DNA of 64,000 bases, taken from a virus. Below, in pieces: positions 1 to 8,129 of this stretch. The stretch's first letter is position 1. Each line of letters opens with the position of its first letter. The notes under the pieces were generated by a model. The model was given only the letters and a program-made list of their open reading frames with translations, did no database searches and had not been told where the DNA came from. The translations under genes and the position numbers were made by a program. The DNA lies in the IMG/VR virus record IMGVR_UViG_3300025150_000004, positions 1 through 64,000 of that record; one strand, 5' to 3'.

Positions 1-1413
1 CTCCACAAGGACACCAACCCAGGGAAGGTTGCCCGGCTGGAAGCCCTGCACGCTGAATACGTCACCTACGTGCGCCTTTGTGTGCAGACGATGCTGGGTA
101 CTCATCGGCTGAACCTCGCCCGCTCGGGGATGCAGGCGTTCTTCCCACGAGCAATCAACCTCACGTCGCAAATCGAGAAGAACGCTCAGGACCATGCCAT
201 TAACATTGTGAGTACGTGGGCAAAAGGCGTCTACGCCCGCAAGATCAAGCCCACGATCACCAACCTCCGACACGAGGGAGACCTGAACGACGAGGACGCC
301 AAGGCCCTCTACACCATCGGCTCTCGGCTGATCTGCCAGCCTTGGAAGTTCATCACGCAAGAGCACCTGGACGCCTACTGGACCTTGCTGGAGACCTATG
401 GTGGGAACCCGCCTTGCGTGAAGGACAGCCTCCCGATGCGGTTGTCCGAGATGACCGCCCGTCTGGAAGGTTCAGTCGAGACGACCCATGCTGATTTCTG
501 GCTCCGGGTATCCAGTCTGGAGGCTCGGCAGTCCATCTGGCTACCGTTGGTCGGCAACCCCTACGTCCAGCAGGCTGATCAAGTTGGCAAAGGCATACAG
601 GCCCGAAAGACCAAGGCAGGTCGGTGGCGGTTTGATGTGGTAGAGAAGTCCGCCTGGGAAGTTCCCGAGCCGCCCGATGACGCCCATCGCCTCGGGGTGG
701 ACGTTGGGCTGAACGTGTTGGCGGCCACATCGGATGGCTGCCTCTACGGAGAGCACGTCAAGCCGAAATTCGACCGGCTCTACGAACGGATCAAACACCT
801 GCGGGCGAACCGTCAGCGTCAGGGGCTCAAGGAAAACTCACCACGGCTTGACCGTCTGGAGTCCCGCCTGAGTGGACTGGTCAAGACGGAAACGGGTCGG
901 ATCGCCAACCGGCTGGTGGCGAAGCACCCGGATACAGTCTTCGTGATTGAAGACCTGGATCTTCGAGGCTGTCGGGGACAAAAGAGGTTTGCCTACCTGG
1001 CTCTTCAGACAAGCCTGGAGAGGAAAGCCCCGACCGAGAAGGTCAACCCAGCATATACGTCACAGGAATGCCCCTCGTGTGGCTACGTGAATCGGGGAAA
1101 TCGCAGTGGGACAAGATTCGTCTGCCGTTCGTGTGGACGAAAGGCTCACGCAGATTGGGTGGGAAGTTCTGGTGTGCTGAGACGTTCTCAGGACGAACGC
1201 ATCGGGACTGATGATCGCCCATCGAGCGTGAAACGGGTGCTGAGAGAGCGATACCGGACAGCACGGGACAGTTTCTCGGGATCTGGGCGGCTTTGCCAGT
1301 CGTCATCCTCGCCCCCACCGTTGGGCAGGAGGCTTACTACCGAGGGAACTCCGTCGGGAGACATCGGCACAGCCTCGAACTCGGTGCCTACTCAAACTTC
1401 GAGTAGGTTCTGA
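1..1413 (+). mobile_element. tnpB: TnpB-family RNA-guided nuclease (IS200/605- or IS607-type); 5' end lies outside the window
   Basis: Frame open from base 1. RuvC motifs GVDVG, VIEDL and HADW; Zn finger CPSCG...CRSCG. Hairpin-rich 3' end (cctactc/gagtagg) like an omegaRNA; probable right end ...AACGG at 1420. Confidence 0.85.
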
Positions 1414-1929
1414 GGAACGGTAGAACCACTCCTCCACCTCACGGACGTAGGCCGCCTGCTTGGCGTAGTCGAACACCCCCTGCATGGTCTGGAGGTTGTG
1501 GGCACGGTCGGCCAACTTCACGACCGAAGCCGTGGGGCACTTGGCCAACTCGTCGAAATAGAGGTTGTAGTCCTTGACCAGGCCGTTCGACTTCTTCGAC
1601 AGCCGCCACACGATGTTGGCCAGGTCCCGGCCGAAGCGCTCCTCCAGAGCTTCCCGGGTCACGGCGGAGCCGTGGTCCTCCAACACATCATGCAGGAACG
1701 CAGCGGCGAGAGCCTGCTCCGGGTTCCGCAGATGCGGATCCACGGTCCGCACGAGGCGGGCGATGGACAACTGGTGGTGGAACCGTGGCGTCTCGCCGTC
1801 CTTCCGGGTGCCCTGCTCCAACTGGCGGACGAACTCCAGGGCGTCGGCGGCAAGGTAGAATCCCCGACCGTCGAGGTAGCCCCGCATCACGGAAAGCTGT
1901 TTGGTGTGTCGGGCCTGGATCTCGGTCAC
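1303..1929 (-). pseudogene. HD-domain (p)ppGpp hydrolase-like (Mesh1/SAH) protein, C-terminus probably disrupted by the TnpB element
   Basis: RKDGETP..H, AAFLHDVLED and VKLADRAHN motifs. The protein becomes non-family-like after EEWFY (~1420), where the element ends. Confidence 0.75.
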
Positions 1930-2640: not shown

Positions 2641-3153
2641 CTAGTCAACTTTCGGAGTGACGATGCCTCGGGCCAAATGATCGACCCGTTGCAGTAGGGC
2701 AGGTAGCCGGTGTCTCCCGGCCATCTGCCTCACCCCAAGAGCGGCTTCTGGTGCTGAAATCCCGGCTGCTGTCACGAACAGCGGTCGGGCACTGACTCCC
2801 CGAAGAACCTCCTCTGCGTCGGTTCCAGGGAAAAAAGACTTGGCGACCCCCACCACAGGGACCTTCCCATCCAAGTACTCGAACAGGTGCCGGCCGAGGC
2901 CCGGTTTCCCAACCCCCAGGTCCACGTATCCGTCCACGATGATGCACCCGAGGGGGTCAGAGATCAGGTCGAGGATGGCGGTGATGCAGGGGAGTTCTCG
3001 TTTGTAGAACGCACCGGGCTCGTACTCGGCGACGTTGGCTACCTCGATGACCCACTCCTGTCGAGCCGGGTTCGACGACCACCCCTCGAACAGGACGGCT
3101 GCAACCTTGGCTGCTTTGTCCTCTCCGTACTGGGCGTCGATGGCGATGAACAT
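2641..3153 (-). CDS. nfi: Endonuclease V
   Basis: AIDAQY, YEPGAFYKRELPC, IVDGY and VGVAK motifs. Confidence 0.85.
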   Translation of the reverse strand: MFIAIDAQYGEDKAAKVAAVLFEGWSSNPARQEWVIEVANVAEYEPGAFYKRELPCITAILDLISDPLGCIIVDGYVDLGVGKPGLGRHLFEYLDGKVPVVGVAKSFFPGTDAEEVLRGVSARPLFVTAAGISAPEAALGVRQMAGRHRLPALLQRVDHLARGIVTPKVD

Positions 3154-4296: not shown

Positions 4297-4929
4297 TTAG
4301 GCGAGCGTCCACCCCTTGTGGTGTTTTCGCTGACCGGAGAACAACAACTGCATCCCCTGTCGGGTCAGTTCGTGTTCTGTACAAAAAGCTGACAATGAGG
4401 GTCGAACCTGCATTAGATCCCCCGACGGGGACTTGACCTGGGGGTACGGGCTCCTCCGTTTCGAGAAACTAATCTTGGCCCGATCTTCGGTGCTCGGGGG
4501 CGTCTTCCGCCCTCCCGAACACACGGCGTTCCTGTTGCCTTTCATCTTCTCGGAGATCTTCCGCTTGGTTGCGGCTGACAGCGTGAACCCTCGGCAACTC
4601 CCGGCCTCGTTCAGAATGTTGTAACACTTCTCCTTTGATGTTCTGTCCAGCCACGCCTGTTCTTCCGACAGAAGGTCATCCGGTCCCACCCAAGCGAGGA
4701 CTGTGAAAAGGAACTCCCCCTCGCCGTACTTGTTGTAGGCGTTCTGTAGGGGGTTGTTAGGGTGGATACCTGCCCGGAGCCGGGCTCGGTGCTGGGTAAG
4801 CCTTCGGTAGAGGTCTGCCGTGGATCCAATGTACCTTTTGCCCGATGGGGTGTGGGAGATCTTGTAGATCCCGCTTTTGCGGGCAAGGGCTTTGTAGGCC
4901 GAGCCGCCAAGGTTGGTGTCTACGTTCAC
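4297..4929 (-). CDS. GIY-YIG homing endonuclease with NUMOD-like DNA-binding repeats
   Basis: SGIYKI...RYIGST...R...H...LQNAYNKYG...E...YN motif series; NUMOD3-like TKRKISE. Confidence 0.9.
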   Translation of the reverse strand: MNVDTNLGGSAYKALARKSGIYKISHTPSGKRYIGSTADLYRRLTQHRARLRAGIHPNNPLQNAYNKYGEGEFLFTVLAWVGPDDLLSEEQAWLDRTSKEKCYNILNEAGSCRGFTLSAATKRKISEKMKGNRNAVCSGGRKTPPSTEDRAKISFSKRRSPYPQVKSPSGDLMQVRPSLSAFCTEHELTRQGMQLLFSGQRKHHKGWTLA

Positions 4930-5348: not shown

Positions 5349-5864
5349 CTATCCGAAGTACCTCTCCCACCAGTTCGCTGGGAGTTGCCTCTCCAGCGAG
5401 GTCAACTCGGCTGTCAGGACTTTCCCCTCATGAACCAGCCGGTGACAGTTGGGACAGATGTAAGCCAGGTTCTTGTGGTTGTTCGGGTCGTGGACCTTTC
5501 TCCCATGGATGTGGTGGATGTCCCCAGTCCCATCGTCCCAACCGCATCTTGAGCACTGGAGACCGAGTCGGCGAAGCAGCTTGCGGCTAGTCCTGGCCGA
5601 CATGTCCAAGATCGACTTGGGTTTCCGCCCAGAAGCCACCGCTCGCCCCACAGTCTGTTGGTGGGCGACAGAACCCTTCAAAGGGCTGGGCCTTCCCCTC
5701 AAGGTTTGGCTAATCCGAGTTTTCCGCTCATCCGACAACACTCGACCCCTCTGGGTGTGGGAGGCGGAGCAGGACAGCGAGCAGTATTTCTGCCGAGGAT
5801 CCTTGGGGACAAAAAGCACTTCACATTCCCCGCACGGCTTCTCTGGGTAAGGGCGCTTTCTCAT
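5349..5864 (-). CDS. HNH homing endonuclease
   Basis: CGEC, YCSLSC and CSRCG...IHHIHG...NLAYICPNCHRLVH; TTGACA-16-TATCCT promoter at 5873-5900. Confidence 0.85.
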   Translation of the reverse strand: MRKRPYPEKPCGECEVLFVPKDPRQKYCSLSCSASHTQRGRVLSDERKTRISQTLRGRPSPLKGSVAHQQTVGRAVASGRKPKSILDMSARTSRKLLRRLGLQCSRCGWDDGTGDIHHIHGRKVHDPNNHKNLAYICPNCHRLVHEGKVLTAELTSLERQLPANWWERYFG

Positions 5865-5901
5865 GGTCCCCCAGGATAGTGAGCCGAACCGAGGTGTCAA
5901 G

Positions 5902-5986
5902 TGGAGCAGGGAGGACTTGAACCTCCTCGCCTCGTCAGAGGGCCAGATTTACAGTCTGGTGGGCCAGCCAGTTGCCCATCTGCTCC
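5902..5986 (-). tRNA. trnY: tRNA-Tyr(GTA)
   Basis: CCAGA-CTGTAAA-TCTGG; long variable arm. Confidence 0.9.
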
Positions 5987-5995
5987 ATATTCCAG

Positions 5996-6066
5996 TGCCC
6001 CGATAGGGCTCGAATCCATGTCTCCGGCTTTTCAGGCCAGCGCTACTCCATCTCAGCTACAGGCGC
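5996..6066 (-). pseudogene. Degenerate tRNA-Phe(GAA)
   Basis: Loop CTGAAAA, but mispaired acceptor and T stems. Confidence 0.6.
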
Positions 6067-6081
6067 TCCTCCATGTTCCAG

Positions 6082-6154
6082 TGCCGAGGGAAGGAGTCGA
6101 ACCTTCGACGCCCAGTTCTTCAGACTGGCGCTCTACCACCTGAGCTACCTCGGC
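6082..6154 (-). tRNA. trnF: tRNA-Phe(GAA)
   Basis: Canonical cloverleaf; CCAGT-CTGAAGA-ACTGG. Confidence 0.95.
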
Positions 6155-6160
6155 ATGAAG

Positions 6161-6234
6161 TGGACCGAGCAGGACTTGAACCTGCAACACCTGAGATTTC
6201 ACCTCAGTGCTCTACGCAATTGAGCTATCGATCC
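6161..6234 (-). tRNA. Atypical tRNA with GAA in the loop (Phe-like)
   Basis: Intact stems; loop GTGAAAT (G32, U38); D loop lacks G18G19. Confidence 0.65.
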
Positions 6235-6240
6235 ATGGAG

Positions 6241-6312
6241 CAGGCTGCCGAGGAATCGAACCCCGCATACCGCCGGATTTGGAGTCCAGCGAGCTTACCC
6301 AGAGCGCAGCCT
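6241..6312 (-). tRNA. trnW: tRNA-Trp(CCA) with a reduced D arm
   Basis: A1-U72, G73; CTGGA-CTCCAAA-TCCGG; short D region. Confidence 0.75.
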
Positions 6313-6316
6313 ACAG

Positions 6317-6402
6317 TGCCGAAGGCGGGATTCGAACCCGCACGCCCGCAAGGGGGCACTGGCCTCTCAGACCAGCGTGTCTACCAGCTTCACCACTTCG
6401 GC
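6317..6402 (-). tRNA. trnL: tRNA-Leu(GAG)
   Basis: Loop CTGAGAG; class II. Confidence 0.9.
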
Positions 6403-6403
6403 G

Positions 6404-6540
6404 TGGCAGGGGGTGAAGGAATCGAACCTCCAGCTTGCTTGTATGCTCGTCGTCGGTTCTCCCCGAGGGGAGAGAGTTCGAGAGCGGGTTCGCAGTTTGA
6501 ACTGGTTTTGGTGACCAGCTTCCGCCCAGCGGAACCCCCT
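6404..6540 (-). ncRNA. Extended tRNA-like RNA, Trp (CCA) loop, with conserved inserted domain
   Basis: Acceptor AGGGGGT/ACCCCCT-G-CCA; T arm; loop CACCAAA; ~70-nt insert. Confidence 0.75.
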
Positions 6541-6579
6541 ATAGGTGCCCTTGTTTTCACCTCCACGGGCCGGAGGAAG

Positions 6580-6723
6580 AGACGGGGGTAGGAGTCGAAC
6601 CTACTGTGCTTGTATGCTCGGCGCTGATGCTCCCGGCCCCGAAGGGTAGGAGCGAGTCCGTGAGCGGGATCTGCATTTGCAGACTGGTTTACGGCCAGTT
6701 GCCCTCCACAGGGCGTCCCCGTC
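6580..6723 (-). ncRNA. Extended tRNA-like RNA, Tyr (GTA) loop, with conserved inserted domain
   Basis: Acceptor GACGGGG/CCCCGTC; T arm; loop CCGTAAA; ~75-nt insert. Confidence 0.75.
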
Positions 6724-6746
6724 AAAGTTTCTCCCGTTGGGAGAAG

Positions 6747-6828
6747 TGCAGAAGGAGGGAGTCGAACCCTCACCCTCATAGAGGACTAGGCTCTGAACCT
6801 AGCGTGTCTACCGTTTCACCACTTCTGC
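6747..6828 (-). tRNA. trnL: tRNA-Leu(CAG)
   Basis: CTAGG-TTCAGAG-CCTAG; class II. Confidence 0.9.
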
Positions 6829-7333
6829 GTGCCTGACCTGTCCATCCTTCAAAAAGCCCCATTTCACGGGCCTCCCGCATCCCTTTCGCCACCACCAACC
6901 AGGCTTCGTGAGGCATGTCCCTGCGGGTGTAGTTGCAGCGGATGCAGGCAGAGATCACGTTGTCCTGTGTGTGCCCCTTCGAGTTGTCGATCCGATCCAG
7001 GGTCATCCTGATCCCGTTTTCGCCGCAGTAGGAGCAGCCTTTGGCGATCTCCTCTGCGATGAACTCACGGGTAAGGTCGTTCTCCCGACCGTTCTTCCGA
7101 TCCGAACGCCGGGTGTCCACCAGGATCCATTTCTCAGTATCTAGTCCCGCTGCCCTCCTTTGTTTCCGTCGCCGTTCCACCCGTTTGGTGGCTTCGGACC
7201 CTTCTGGAGTGGCTCTCCACTCTCGACTAGCTTTCGCTTTGCAGTCAAGACAACGGGAGCGGGTGTACCCTTTTCCGTTGGAATTGGAGGTCTCAAGCCG
7301 ATCTGCCGACCCACATTGACGACAGGTTCTCAT
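6776..7333 (-). CDS. HNH homing endonuclease; reads 53 nt into tRNA-Leu(CAG)
   Basis: CRQC, CLDC and CSYCG...LDRIDNSKGH..DNV..C..CN; extended -10 TGcTACGTT 6 nt before ATG. Confidence 0.85.
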   Translation of the reverse strand: MRTCRQCGSADRLETSNSNGKGYTRSRCLDCKAKASREWRATPEGSEATKRVERRRKQRRAAGLDTEKWILVDTRRSDRKNGRENDLTREFIAEEIAKGCSYCGENGIRMTLDRIDNSKGHTQDNVISACIRCNYTRRDMPHEAWLVVAKGMREAREMGLFEGWTGQARRSGETVDTLGSEPSPL

Positions 7334-7370
7334 AGTGGGAACGTAGCACATTTCTCCCCGTTCCCACAAG

Positions 7371-7460
7371 CGGAAGGACCGAGGGTCGAACTCGGAAGGC
7401 CCTTTCGGGCTCGACGGTTTAGCAAACCGTTGCCATCGCCTGCTGTTGGCTCGCCCTTCC
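7371..7460 (-). tRNA. trnS: tRNA-Ser(GCT)
   Basis: ACGGT-TTGCTAA-ACCGT; long variable arm; G73. Confidence 0.9.
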
Positions 7461-7529
7461 AGAACATGGAGTCCCGCTACCCTCGGTTCTCAGGTTGTCC
7501 ACCGTGCAGGTGGTTCCGACTCCAATCAG

Positions 7530-7617
7530 CGGAGAGAGGGGGAGTCGAACCCCCAAGGCCCTCATCAGGCTCAACCGGCTTCCAACCGGGTCCCGTCGCC
7601 AATCGGGTTGCCTCTCC
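7530..7617 (-). tRNA. trnS: tRNA-Ser(GGA)
   Basis: Loop TTGGAAG; class II; G73. Confidence 0.9.
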
Positions 7618-7620
7618 AGG

Positions 7621-7761
7621 CGGGGATGGCAGGACTCGAACCTGCAAATGCTTGTAGGCTCTTCGAGGGTCCTCCCCTGGTCGGGGGAGGGAGTTCGTGA
7701 GCAGGAACGCTTACACGTCGGTTTTTCTGACCGATGCCTTTACCAGTTAGGCTACATCCCC
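7621..7761 (-). ncRNA. Extended tRNA-like RNA, Phe (GAA) loop, with conserved inserted domain
   Basis: Acceptor GGGGATG/CATCCCC; normal D and T arms; loop CAGAAAA; ~70-nt insert. Confidence 0.75.
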
Positions 7762-7791
7762 ATGTTGTCCTCCCCTGGCGGGGGAGGGCAG

Positions 7792-7879
7792 CGGAAGGAG
7801 GGAGAGTCGAACTCCCAAGGCGCTCATCACGCTCGTCCGGGTTCGAGCCGGGTGCCGTCGCCAATCGGCTTGCCCTTCC
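7792..7879 (-). tRNA. trnS: tRNA-Ser(CGA)
   Basis: Loop CTCGAAC; class II; G73. Confidence 0.9.
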
Positions 7880-7883
7880 AAAG

Positions 7884-7965
7884 TGCGGTCGGGGAGAGTC
7901 GAACTCCCACGCCTGTTAGGCACAACGCCCTCAACGTTGCGTGTCTACCATTCCACCACGACCGC
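7884..7965 (-). tRNA. trnL: tRNA-Leu(GAG), first gene of the array
   Basis: CAACG-TTGAGGG-CGTTG; class II. Confidence 0.9.
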
Positions 7966-8010
7966 AAAGGTGCTGAGGCTGGGTGACCACCAGCACCAGT
8001 TGCCGCTCTT

Positions 8011-8025
8011 CAGTTGTCAAAGACC
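8011..8025 (-). promoter_or_regulatory. boxA-like antitermination site
   Basis: GGTCTTTGACAACTG resembles rrn-leader boxA (TCTTT(A/G)ACAA); 45 nt before the first tRNA. Confidence 0.55.
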
Positions 8026-8085
8026 GCCCCGGGTCCAACGACCCGGAGCCCCCAGCCGGTGCCGGGGTGGTTCCCGAAGGAACTT

Positions 8086-8129
8086 AAACGACGAAGCCCC
8101 CTCGGGCTCTCGGCCGGAGGGGGCTTCGT
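8086..8129 (-). terminator. Attenuator/intrinsic terminator in the tRNA-operon leader
   Basis: 13-bp stem ACGAAGCCCCCTC/GAGGGGGCTTCGT followed by CGTTT. Confidence 0.8.

What the first reader, a model, noticed from the sequence alone, without database searches (positions are those of the whole stretch)
6404..7761. Three aromatic-anticodon tRNA-like RNAs sharing a novel inserted domain
SEEN: 6404-6540 (CCA, Trp), 6580-6723 (GTA, Tyr) and 7621-7761 (GAA, Phe) have intact acceptor and T arms but are 137-144 nt long. Between the anticodon and T arms each has a small hairpin, then CCYGCTC-WCG-RACTC-[variable GC hairpin]-A-YCNNCGM-MGAGC-MTACAAGCA. GCTC/GAGC pair, and the distal hairpin differs in sequence but stays paired. 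All three lack U33 (A33, C33, A33), and separate non-extended Trp/Tyr/Phe tRNAs lie nearby. KNOWN: U33 is near-invariant in decoding tRNAs, and the insert is neither a group I/II nor a BHB intron. INFERRED: a non-translational tRNA-mimic family, one per aromatic amino acid. Possible roles: decoy for a tRNA nuclease or synthetase, aminoacyl donor, protein-recruiting scaffold, or a new excisable element.
Basis: partly seen in the sequence, partly recalled or inferred. Interest (0 to 1): 0.9.

Follow-up and report, generated by a model that had tools for sequence, protein, structure and literature searches.

The report
tRNA-shaped Y-RNA-like phage RNAs
Three oversized "tRNAs" (Trp, Tyr, Phe) in a huge phage's tRNA cluster carry a conserved folded side arm that, in related phages, nearly always sits just upstream of a gene for a Ro60-like RNA-surveillance protein, so they are most likely that protein's partner RNAs (tRNA-shaped Y RNAs) and not ordinary or intron-bearing tRNAs.

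Summary
Three cloverleaf-competent tRNA-like genes lie on the minus strand: Trp-CCA at 6404-6540, Tyr-GTA at 6580-6723 and Phe-GAA at 7621-7761. Each carries a 49-58 nt module in the variable-arm position, and all three lack U33.

A covariance model finds only these three copies in the 143-kb record. It finds more than 30 homologous copies in metagenomic huge-phage contigs. On 24 aligned copies, 8 of 11 base pairs show compensatory changes.

The module is not specific to aromatic amino acids. Relatives carry it on Met, Gly, Asn, Gln, Lys and Pro-type bodies, as a stand-alone RNA, and split around acceptor-truncated tRNA-likes. U33 is mostly kept elsewhere.

At 11 of 12 relatives' loci examined, the module lies within about 2 kb upstream of a 620-640 aa gene. 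Predicted structure shows this gene to be Ro60-like (TROVE ring plus vWA). The module's stem, CG-N-A bulge and stem recall the Ro60-binding part of Y RNAs.

Best reading: tRNA-shaped Y-RNA-like partners of a divergent phage Ro60. This is a new variant of a known kind and is absent from Rfam 15.

Caveat: no Ro60-like gene is present in the held fragment of this phage, which is about 27% complete.

Earlier notes of this scan reached the same reading on other genomes.

The parts
6404..6540 (-). Trp-type extended tRNA-like RNA. It has a 7-bp acceptor stem, discriminator G and an encoded CCA. The anticodon loop CACCAAA lies at 6513-6507 (anticodon CCA 6511-6509, A33 at 6512). T arm is GGAGG-UUCGAUU-CCUUC.
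   Evidence: Sequence reading; MFE fold z = -3.4; ARAGORN calls tRNA-Trp(cca) after in-silico removal of the module.
6437..6485 (-). Module of the Trp-type RNA. GCUC (6485-6482), bulge strand UCGAACUC, distal hairpin UCUCCCC-UC-GGGGAGA (6473-6458), GAGC (6448-6445), and the single-stranded motif AUACAAGC (6444-6437).
   Evidence: Pattern match; covariance model R1, 71.4 bits; covariation.
6580..6723 (-). Tyr-type extended tRNA-like RNA. Acceptor stem GACGGGG/CCCCGUC. Anticodon loop CCGUAAA at 6694-6688 (GUA 6692-6690, C33 at 6693). A small hairpin CUGC-AAAU-GCAG precedes the module.
   Evidence: ARAGORN calls tRNA-Tyr(gta) after in-silico removal of the module.
6608..6665 (-). Module of the Tyr-type RNA. 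GCUC, bulge strand ACGGACUC, a long distal hairpin, GAGC, then AUACAAGC.
   Evidence: R1 63.5 bits.
7621..7761 (-). Phe-type extended tRNA-like RNA. Acceptor stem GGGGAUG/CAUCCCC. Anticodon loop CAGAAAA at 7729-7723 (GAA 7727-7725, A33 at 7728).
   Evidence: Rfam tRNA 51 bits with the insert placed in the variable region; ARAGORN calls tRNA-Phe(gaa) after removal of the module.
7650..7702 (-). Module of the Phe-type RNA. GCUC, bulge strand ACGAACUC, distal hairpin CCUCCCC-CGACCA-GGGGAGG, GAGC, then CUACAAGC.
   Evidence: R1 73.7 bits.
5901..6314 (-). Canonical, non-extended isoacceptors in the same array: Tyr 5901-5986, Phe 5996-6066, Phe 6081-6154, Phe 6160-6234, Trp 6240-6314. All have U33. 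Their bodies are unrelated to the extended copies.

Best explanation
The three genes encode stable, unspliced, tRNA-shaped non-coding RNAs of the Y-RNA type.

The tRNA body is a mimic. It keeps the acceptor/T minihelix, the D arm, and an anticodon arm with a conserved Trp, Tyr or Phe anticodon.

The structured arm grafted between the anticodon and T arms has this order: clamp helix GCUC/GAGC, asymmetric bulge N-CG-N-A-CUC, variable distal hairpin, and the unpaired word ACAAGC. I read it as the docking site for a divergent phage Ro60-like protein (TROVE ring plus vWA).

The RNP would then act as known Ro60/Y-RNA particles do. The RNA tethers or gates the ring protein and brings it to tRNA-recognising partners or exonucleases, for surveillance, turnover or protection of (t)RNA during infection.

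Shown here:
- The RNA family, its fold and its covariation.
- Conservation of the anticodon together with loss of U33.
- Co-location of the module with the Ro60-like gene in relatives.
- The Ro60-like fold of that protein.

Inferred:
- Physical binding between the module and the protein.
- That this phage has the protein.
- The downstream activity.
For: 1. Real, selected RNA structure.
- R1 hits at 63-74 bits in the window.
- 24 aligned copies are 90.8% paired, and 8 of 11 pairs show compensatory changes. No shuffle out of 500 reached the observed value, and slid controls gave 35-47% paired.

2. Gene linkage in relatives.
- Module copies lie directly upstream of, and co-oriented with, homologues of one 620-640 aa gene in L014, L022, L025, L027, L028, L029, L031, L033, G001 and G003.
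- The complete 395-kb phage G002 also carries them there. Its only two R1 hits genome-wide, which are weak (about 19-21 bits), lie within 1.8 kb upstream of that gene.
- One sampled locus out of 12 (L032) lacks the module.

3. That gene is Ro60-like.
- Full-length Foldseek top hits are Ro60/TROVE structures.
- For the N-terminal 430 aa alone, the six best VIA-align matches are all Ro60/TROVE: Z 9.2-7.6, 265-297 residues aligned. Unrelated helical repeat proteins score Z 5.8 or less.
- The C-terminal vWA domain scores Z about 15.
- ESM features point to TROVE/DUF2828.

4. Design parallels with known Y RNAs.
- Known bacterial and phage Y RNAs are encoded next to Ro60, contain a tRNA-like domain, and bind through a stem-bulge-stem with a CGAA-type motif (PMC4201824; PMC12135203).
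- The module's bulge strand reads UCGAACUC, ACGGACUC and ACGAACUC in the window.
- 'Split' relatives have the clamp helix formed by the RNA's two ends around a tRNA-like core. That is the classical Y-RNA layout.

5. Decoding is not the constraint.
- U33 is lost in all three window copies, while the anticodon triplets are identical to those of the orthologues in L011 and L013.
- One orthologous group in relatives has hypervariable anticodon loops, one of them 8 nt long.
- Every extended copy has a canonical isoacceptor in the same array.
Against: - No Ro60-like, TROVE, DUF2828 or VWA_2 gene is detectable in the 143 kb held for this phage. The three copies here also sit inside the array, not next to such a gene. 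The record is only about 27% complete by CheckV, so the link is untested for this genome.
- The two other lineage-A contigs (L011, L013) end too soon to tell.
- The Rfam YrlA and Y_RNA models do not hit the module.
- The published GNCGAAN0-1G motif is matched only in its CGAA core, and only in 7 of 24 copies.
- The Ro60-like assignment rests on predicted structure with moderate Z scores for a helical-repeat fold. No Pfam TROVE hit was found in 40 homologues.
- Binding, expression and RNA ends were not observable.
Confidence: 0.58

Rival explanations
1. They are working decoding tRNAs with an unusually large 'expansion' variable arm. They are aminoacylated and used on the ribosome. The arm serves, for example, to mark phage tRNAs or to protect them from host variable-loop or anticodon nucleases.
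For: - Complete cloverleaf with a canonical T loop, and anticodons conserved among orthologues.
- G73 plus an encoded CCA in the Trp copy.
- Most relatives keep U33.
- Host defences that cut tRNA variable or anticodon loops are known (PMC13096335, abstract seen).
Against: - U33 is lost in all three window copies (A, C, A), and canonical isoacceptors are always present as well.
- One orthologous group has hypervariable and 8-nt anticodon loops.
- The same module occurs on acceptor-truncated bodies and without any tRNA.
- A 70-nt two-helix arm is far beyond any known class II variable arm (established knowledge).
Confidence: 0.14
2. The insert is a new kind of intervening sequence in the variable loop. 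It would be removed by a protein endonuclease plus ligase or by RNase processing, giving ordinary or split tRNAs.
For: - Conserved sequence sits at both ends of the insert (CCN-GCUC and GAGC-N-UACAAGC), with an invariant 4-bp helix flanked by unpaired nucleotides.
- The split arrangement in relatives resembles permuted tRNA genes.
Against: - No regular BHB geometry. The stretch flanking the helix on the 5' side does not pair with the stretch on the 3' side, and the inner helix is offset 1/2 rather than 0/3 (sequence reading).
- No group I/II or ribozyme family hit at E of 1 or less.
- No RtcB or splicing endonuclease in G000 or G001. Both records are fragments.
- Loss of U33 would make the spliced products poor decoders.
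- Linkage to a Ro60-like gene is not expected for an intron.
Confidence: 0.1
3. They are anticodon-specific decoys or non-ribosomal aminoacyl donors. They would either soak up a host nuclease or toxin aimed at tRNA-Trp/Tyr/Phe, or be charged with aromatic amino acids for a transferase. Neither role would depend on Ro60.
For: - Anticodon triplets are retained while U33 drifts. This fits recognition by synthetases or nucleases but not by the ribosome.
- The aromatic trio is conserved between the window, L011 and L013.
- Precedent: non-proteinogenic tRNA-Gly of staphylococci (established knowledge).
Against: - No candidate transferase or nuclease partner was identified.
- The module itself, which is the conserved part, is unexplained by this reading.
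- The module occurs with many other anticodons and with none.
Confidence: 0.1
4. It is a selfish, non-autonomous mobile insert that has disabled redundant tRNA copies, leaving pseudogenes.
For: - The array is full of homing endonuclease genes: HNH, GIY-YIG.
- The extended copies are always redundant with canonical ones.
Against: - Orthologous extended tRNAs are kept across phages that share only about 50% protein identity. They show compensatory changes and intact tRNA arms.
- The bodies of extended copies are unrelated to the canonical paralogues, so these are not recent duplicates hit by an insertion.
Confidence: 0.04

Closest known systems
YrlA-type bacterial and phage Y RNAs bound by Ro60/Rsr (Rfam RF02553; Chen et al. 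2014, PMC4201824)
   Same: - Small RNAs that combine a tRNA-like domain (T and D arms, tRNA tertiary pairs) with a helix-bulge element for Ro60.
- Encoded beside the Ro60 gene, often in several copies, in bacteria and phages.
- A CGAA-type motif in the bulge.
   Different: - In YrlA the Ro60-binding stem is formed by the RNA's ends and replaces the anticodon stem, and the acceptor stem is capped. Here the tRNA is a complete, open cloverleaf with a real anticodon arm, and the docking element is a capped arm in the variable-loop position.
- The motif differs: clamp GCUC/GAGC, CUC and ACAAGC, against GNCGAAN0-1G.
- The Rfam model does not hit.
- The partner protein is too diverged for Pfam TROVE.
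- In this window no Ro60 gene is nearby.
Thermus phage phiLo Ro60 with Yrl1 and Yrl2 (PMC12135203; PDB 9KOP, 9L5Y)
   Same: - A phage-encoded Ro60 with two Y-RNA-like genes immediately upstream.
- Stem-bulge(CGAA)-stem design.
- 9KOP and 9L5Y are the best structural matches of the relatives' protein: Z 9.2 and 9.0.
   Different: - As described, the phiLo Yrl RNAs are plain Y-RNA-like stems, not full tRNAs.
- Sequence identity of the proteins is only 17-19% over the aligned part.
- The RNP there was shown to bind host PNPase. Nothing comparable is known here.
Class II tRNAs (Leu, Ser, bacterial Tyr, Sec) and allo-tRNAs with long variable arms (PMC5389517)
   Same: An extra helix emerges between the anticodon and T arms. 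The extended genes sit among the Leu, Ser and Tyr genes of the array.
   Different: Known variable arms are single hairpins of up to about 20 nt and vary in sequence. Here there are 60-70 nt with two helices and invariant unpaired motifs shared across different anticodons.
Archaeal BHB introns at non-canonical positions, and permuted or split tRNA genes
   Same: An insert at a non-anticodon-loop position, and a permuted or split arrangement in relatives.
   Different: No bulge-helix-bulge geometry, no splicing endonuclease or RtcB found, bacterial-virus context, and linkage to a Ro60-like gene.

Membership tests
Y RNA / YrlA (Ro60 partner RNAs) | Encoded next to a Ro60 (TROVE+vWA) gene | tested here: inconclusive
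   Met in relatives. The module lies within about 2 kb upstream of a Ro60-like gene at 11 of 12 loci, including the complete 395-kb genome G002. Not met in the held 143 kb of this phage, but that record is only about 27% complete.
Y RNA / YrlA (Ro60 partner RNAs) | Helix-bulge-helix Ro60-binding element with the GNCGAAN0-1G or CGAA motif | tested here: inconclusive
   The stem-bulge-stem is present and covaries. The bulge strand reads NCGAACUC in the Trp and Phe copies and ACGGACUC in the Tyr copy. CGAA occurs in 7 of 24 family members, and the flanking G's of the published motif are absent (PMC4201824, PMC12135203).
Y RNA / YrlA (Ro60 partner RNAs) | tRNA-like domain (T arm, D arm) | tested here: met
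   Full cloverleaf. Rfam tRNA 51 bits for the Phe copy. ARAGORN calls tRNAs after removal of the arm.
Y RNA / YrlA (Ro60 partner RNAs) | Match to the Rfam models RF02553 (YrlA) or RF00019 (Y_RNA) | tested here: not met
   cmscan at E of 1 or less over 5800-8100 gives no Y_RNA hit. The only YrlA hit (24 bits, below gathering) lies on a canonical tRNA-Phe.
Y RNA / YrlA (Ro60 partner RNAs) | Physical binding to Ro60 | not testable with these tools
   No RNA-protein modelling or expression data were available.
Canonical decoding tRNA | U33 and a 7-nt anticodon loop forming the U-turn | tested here: not met
   A33, C33 and A33 in the three window copies. The loops are 7 nt long.
Canonical decoding tRNA | Variable region of 4-5 nt (class I) or a single hairpin of up to about 20 nt (class II) | tested here: not met
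   68-78 nt lie between the anticodon and T stems, with two helices.
Group I / group II / ribozyme-type inserts | Match to the catalytic-core models | tested here: not met
   No Rfam family other than tRNA and tRNA-Sec overlaps the elements at E of 1 or less. The insert is far too short for group I or II.
BHB (archaeal-type) tRNA intron | Two 3-nt bulges on opposite strands separated by a 4-bp helix, and a splicing endonuclease plus ligase | tested here: not met
   A 4-bp helix exists, but the outer helix is missing and the inner helix is offset 1/2 (sequence reading). PF01974 and PF01139 are absent from G000 and G001. Both records are fragments.
Ro60 / TROVE protein family (partner gene in relatives) | HEAT-repeat ring (TROVE) followed by a vWA domain | tested here: met
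   AlphaFold models have pLDDT of about 80. The best structural matches of the N-terminal part are six Ro60 structures at Z 9.2-7.6, against 5.8 or less for others. vWA scores Z about 15. The sequence-level Pfam TROVE test was not met.

The most novel reading that the evidence does not exclude
The tRNA-shaped Y RNAs are isoacceptor-specific adaptors. Their preserved anticodon and acceptor identity would let them be recognised, perhaps charged, by TrpRS, TyrRS and PheRS, or by a host nuclease that targets those tRNAs. The docked Ro60-like ring would then be delivered to one particular tRNA species or its enzymes. This would give the phage anticodon-addressed tRNA surveillance, repair or counter-defence. 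Different phage lineages would have re-addressed the system by swapping anticodons: the aromatic trio here, and Met, Gly, Pro, Asn, Gln or Lys elsewhere.
Probability: 0.15. Interest if true: 0.85.

Novelty: new variant of a known kind. Interest (0 to 1): 0.62.

Why it matters
Y RNAs and Ro60 are conserved from bacteria to humans, yet what the tRNA-like half of bacterial Y RNAs does is still unknown. Here the mimic is a whole tRNA with a specific, conserved anticodon, and the Ro60-docking element is a separable arm. That architecture suggests the tRNA half is read by tRNA-specific partners, and it makes the question experimentally tractable: swap the anticodon, delete the arm.

The work also shows three further things:
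- A very widespread, unannotated huge-phage protein (more than 1,300 homologues) is Ro60-like.
- Oversized 'tRNAs' that tRNA finders miss in phage arrays are probably non-coding RNA partners, not introns or pseudogenes.
- Rfam lacks this RNA family.

Tried and rejected
- **Rfam.** Gathering thresholds over the whole window, and E of 1 or less over 5800-8100, gave no family for the module.
- **Pattern scans.** Viral contigs gave only L004 as a real match from four module patterns. L005-L009 and L020 are chance hits with no hairpin. Metagenome contigs gave L011-L014. L010, L015 and L016 are soil contigs with weak partial matches (16-18 bits) and no tRNA context, and I left them out as unresolved. 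Genome contigs gave only a chance hit in a Bifidobacteriaceae MAG.
- **INPHARED phages, blastn.** No match to the extended tRNAs; only ordinary tRNA similarity.
- **Literature.** Five full-text searches found no description of tRNAs with such arms.
- **Splicing machinery.** No RtcB or tRNA-intron endonuclease in G000 or G001.
- **CobT-like chelatase idea** for the vWA protein. Dropped after the fold searches.
- **Pfam and NCBIfam TROVE hits by sequence.** None. PDB sequence search: none.
- **Whole-protein VIA-align.** Only the vWA domain was reported, so the N-terminal part was folded alone.
- **Complementarity.** I looked for pairing of ACAAGC or ACUC to the tRNA body, and for similarity to the tetraloop receptor, k-turn, loop E, HDV-like and twister motifs. 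Sequence inspection found nothing convincing.
- **Other inserts.** Variable-arm inserts of other kinds in L037-L039 are not this module.
Full report
**Context.** The window is the first 64 kb of a 142.9-kb IMG/VR virus record that CheckV rates about 27% complete, so it is a fragment of a huge phage with GC of about 63%. A tRNA array occupies the minus strand from about 3.2 to 8.0 kb. It is interspersed with HNH and GIY-YIG endonuclease genes.

**Observation.**

On the minus strand each has a 7-bp acceptor stem, a D arm with GG, a 5-bp anticodon stem with a 7-nt loop, and a canonical T arm (GGUUCGAnUCC).

The loops read as follows:
- Trp: CACCAAA, with A33.
- Tyr: CCGUAAA, with C33.
- Phe: CAGAAAA, with A33.

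The Rfam tRNA model aligns the Phe element end to end at 51 bits and places a 68-nt insertion in the variable region. When the insert is deleted in silico, ARAGORN calls tRNA-Phe(gaa), tRNA-Tyr(gta) and tRNA-Trp(cca). ARAGORN misses all three as they stand.

The shared insert is exact at CCYGCUC-NCGRACUC-[hairpin]-...-GAGC-MUACAAGC. Canonical Tyr, three Phe and Trp genes with U33 and unrelated bodies lie at 5901-6314.

**Family.**

DNA-pattern scans and a covariance model (R1) showed that the module occurs only three times in the 143-kb record. It is not in Rfam 15, in 50,697 GenBank phage records, or in GTDB representative genomes under the strict pattern.

It is present in uncultured huge-phage contigs:
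- L011 and L013 resemble the window. L013 has the same Phe, Trp, Tyr trio beside canonical copies. L011 shows two Phe-type copies and a Trp copy before the contig ends. L011 shares about 50% protein identity with the window.
- A second, larger lineage comprises L012/L014, L022, L025, L027, L028, L029, L031 and L033.
- AT-rich phages G002 and G003 carry it.
- G001 has a stand-alone module closed by a plain helix.

On 24 aligned copies, 90.8% of cells pair and 8 of 11 pairs have compensatory changes. No shuffle out of 500 reached any of the measures, and slid controls gave 35-47% paired. The clamp helix is invariant GCUC/GAGC in the window. Elsewhere it appears as GCAC/GUGC, GCUU/AAGC and GCUG/CAGC. 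Unpaired CUC (before the distal hairpin) and ACAAGC (after the clamp) are essentially invariant.

The module is not tied to aromatic amino acids. In relatives it sits on Met(CAU), Gly(UCC), Asn, Gln, Lys and Pro-type bodies. It also sits on a body without an anticodon arm (L012 5330-5450), and it occurs alone.

In a split form, the 3' half (RAGC-N-YACAAGC) precedes an acceptor-truncated Ile- or Ala-like tRNA and the 5' half (CCN-GCUY-NNN-CUC) follows it. The clamp helix is then made by the RNA's two ends.

U33 is kept in most relatives. It is missing in all three window copies and in the L013 Tyr copy. The anticodon triplets, however, are identical among orthologues. One orthologous group has hypervariable loops, including an 8-nt loop.

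Every extended copy is accompanied by a canonical isoacceptor. The pattern therefore points to selection on the RNA fold and often on the anticodon triplet, but not on ribosomal decoding.

**The partner.**

In the second lineage the extended tRNAs always close the array, immediately upstream of and co-oriented with a 620-640 aa gene. That gene has more than 1,300 homologues.

- By sequence, only a C-terminal vWA domain is recognised.
- ESM features pointed to TROVE/DUF2828 at lead level.
- The AlphaFold model of the whole protein gave Ro60/TROVE structures as the best full-length Foldseek hits: 9KOP, 2I91, 1YVR, 9L5Y, 2NVO, with E from 4e-8 to 4e-5.
- The N-terminal 430 residues folded alone gave six Ro60/TROVE entries as the six best VIA-align matches, at Z 9.2-7.6 with 265-297 residues aligned and rmsd 4.5-6.5. 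The next, unrelated repeat proteins scored Z 5.8 or less.
- The vWA part scores Z about 15.

The TROVE-then-vWA order is that of Ro60.

Co-location was then tested on further, more distant homologues:
- L031 has four or more module copies, and L033 five or more, directly upstream of the gene. L032 has none.
- In G001 the stand-alone module ends 55 nt before the gene's ATG.
- In the complete 395-kb genome G002, the only two R1 hits genome-wide (weak, about 19-21 bits) lie within 1.8 kb upstream of the gene.

**Comparison with what is known.**

Bacterial and phage Y RNAs (YrlA) are encoded beside Ro60, contain a tRNA-like domain, and carry a GNCGAAN0-1G motif thought to contact Ro60 (PMC4201824). 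Thermus phage phiLo encodes a Ro60 with two Y-RNA-like genes upstream. These were recognised by a stem-bulge-stem with a CGAA motif, and the RNP binds host PNPase (PMC12135203).

The module here is a stem-bulge-stem whose bulge strand reads UCGAACUC, ACGGACUC and ACGAACUC in the window. Only 7 of 24 family members have CGAA (most have CG-N-A). The flanking G's are absent, and the Rfam YrlA and Y_RNA models do not match.

The split relatives have the classical Y-RNA topology. The window's copies are a different topology: a complete, open tRNA with the docking element capped and grafted into the variable loop.

I therefore file this as working like a Y RNA, and as a diverged, uncatalogued branch of that kind. 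I do not file it as a member of Rfam YrlA.

**Mechanism, most likely (confidence 0.58).** The RNAs are not spliced. Their arm docks a phage Ro60-like ring, and the tRNA body presents a specific tRNA look-alike to tRNA-recognising partners. The particle would act in (t)RNA surveillance, turnover or protection during infection. Binding, the identity of the partners and the activity are all inferred.

**Main weakness.** The window's own record contains no Ro60-like, TROVE, DUF2828 or vWA gene. Here the three genes lie inside the array and not beside such a gene. With 73% of the genome missing, this neither supports nor refutes the link.

**Rivals.** These are decoding tRNAs with an expansion arm, a new intervening sequence, anticodon-specific decoys or aminoacyl donors, and selfish inserts. 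They are listed with their evidence in the rival explanations.

**Earlier notes of this scan.** Notes read only after I had reached this reading describe the same design on other genomes: oversized tRNA-like RNAs with a C(T/C)NACAAG-ending arm, and permuted forms, beside Ro60-like genes. They agree with my reading but are not independent evidence.

**Verdict.** This is a new variant of a known kind (Y RNA / Ro60 systems), apparently undescribed in the literature I could search.

Noticed in passing
window 7766-7790 (-) versus 7672-7696 (-): The hairpin just upstream of the Phe-type RNA (CCCUCCCCCGCCAGGGGAGGAC) is nearly identical to the distal hairpin inside its module (CCCUCCCCCGACCAGGGGAGGAC). 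Similar GC hairpins separate other tRNAs of the array. The meaning is unknown: a processing signal, or a duplication.
   Followed up: no
window 70-1413 (+): A TnpB/Cas12f-like ORF (OrfB_IS605 plus the Cas12f1-like TNB domain) lies just beyond the downstream end of the tRNA array.
   Followed up: no
window 1303-1929, 2641-3153, 4297-4929, 5349-5900, 6776-7369 (all -): Genes in and below the array: an HD-domain protein, an Endonuclease V-like protein, a GIY-YIG endonuclease, an HNH endonuclease, and a 197-aa protein with a Lar-like zinc ribbon plus an HNH-like region.
   Followed up: partly
L012 5478-5600; L022 9150-9300 and 9680-9800; L031 2760-2900; L033 2790-2930; L004 736-810: 'Split' members of the family. 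The 3' half of the module (RAGC-N-YACAAGC) precedes an acceptor-truncated Ile(GAU)- or Ala(UGC)-like tRNA, and the 5' half (CCN-GCUY-NNN-CUC) follows it. The clamp helix is therefore formed by the RNA's ends, which is the Y-RNA topology. None is present in the window.
   Followed up: partly
L013 390-454 (-): A DUF3800-VIII RNA (Rfam RF03075, 58.7 bits, above gathering) sits between tRNA-Tyr and tRNA-Phe in the related array. The window has no counterpart.
   Followed up: no
L037 1810-1990, L038 6963-7120, L039 8780-8935: Other viral contigs have tRNA-like genes with the same D-arm sequence but different long inserts after the anticodon arm, with no ACAAGC and no R1 hit. More than one kind of oversized phage tRNA-like RNA therefore exists. 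The record behind L037 (G005) has a weak match to the vWA part of the Ro60-like profile (E 2e-10).
   Followed up: no
L010 540-587, L015 4245-4292, L016 1154-1200: Three related soil contigs carry GCUCUCGAACUC...GGAGCUUACAAGC without a clear distal hairpin or any tRNA nearby (R1 16-18 bits). They may be a remote relative or a chance match. Unresolved.
   Followed up: partly
window 5996-6066 and 6240-6314 (-): ARAGORN misses two tRNAs with unusual D arms or acceptor stems. One is a third tRNA-Phe(GAA), at 38.6 bits on the Rfam tRNA model. The other is the canonical tRNA-Trp(CCA), which appears only as a sub-threshold tRNA-Sec match. Its orthologue in L013 is called tRNA-Trp.
   Followed up: partly
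L014 7121-8110 and homologues (327-334 aa), directly downstream of the Ro60-like gene: A conserved gene without any Pfam or NCBIfam family always follows the Ro60-like gene. After it come a 126-130 aa gene, an HNH gene and a ThiF-like gene. It may be a further component of the RNP system.
   Followed up: no
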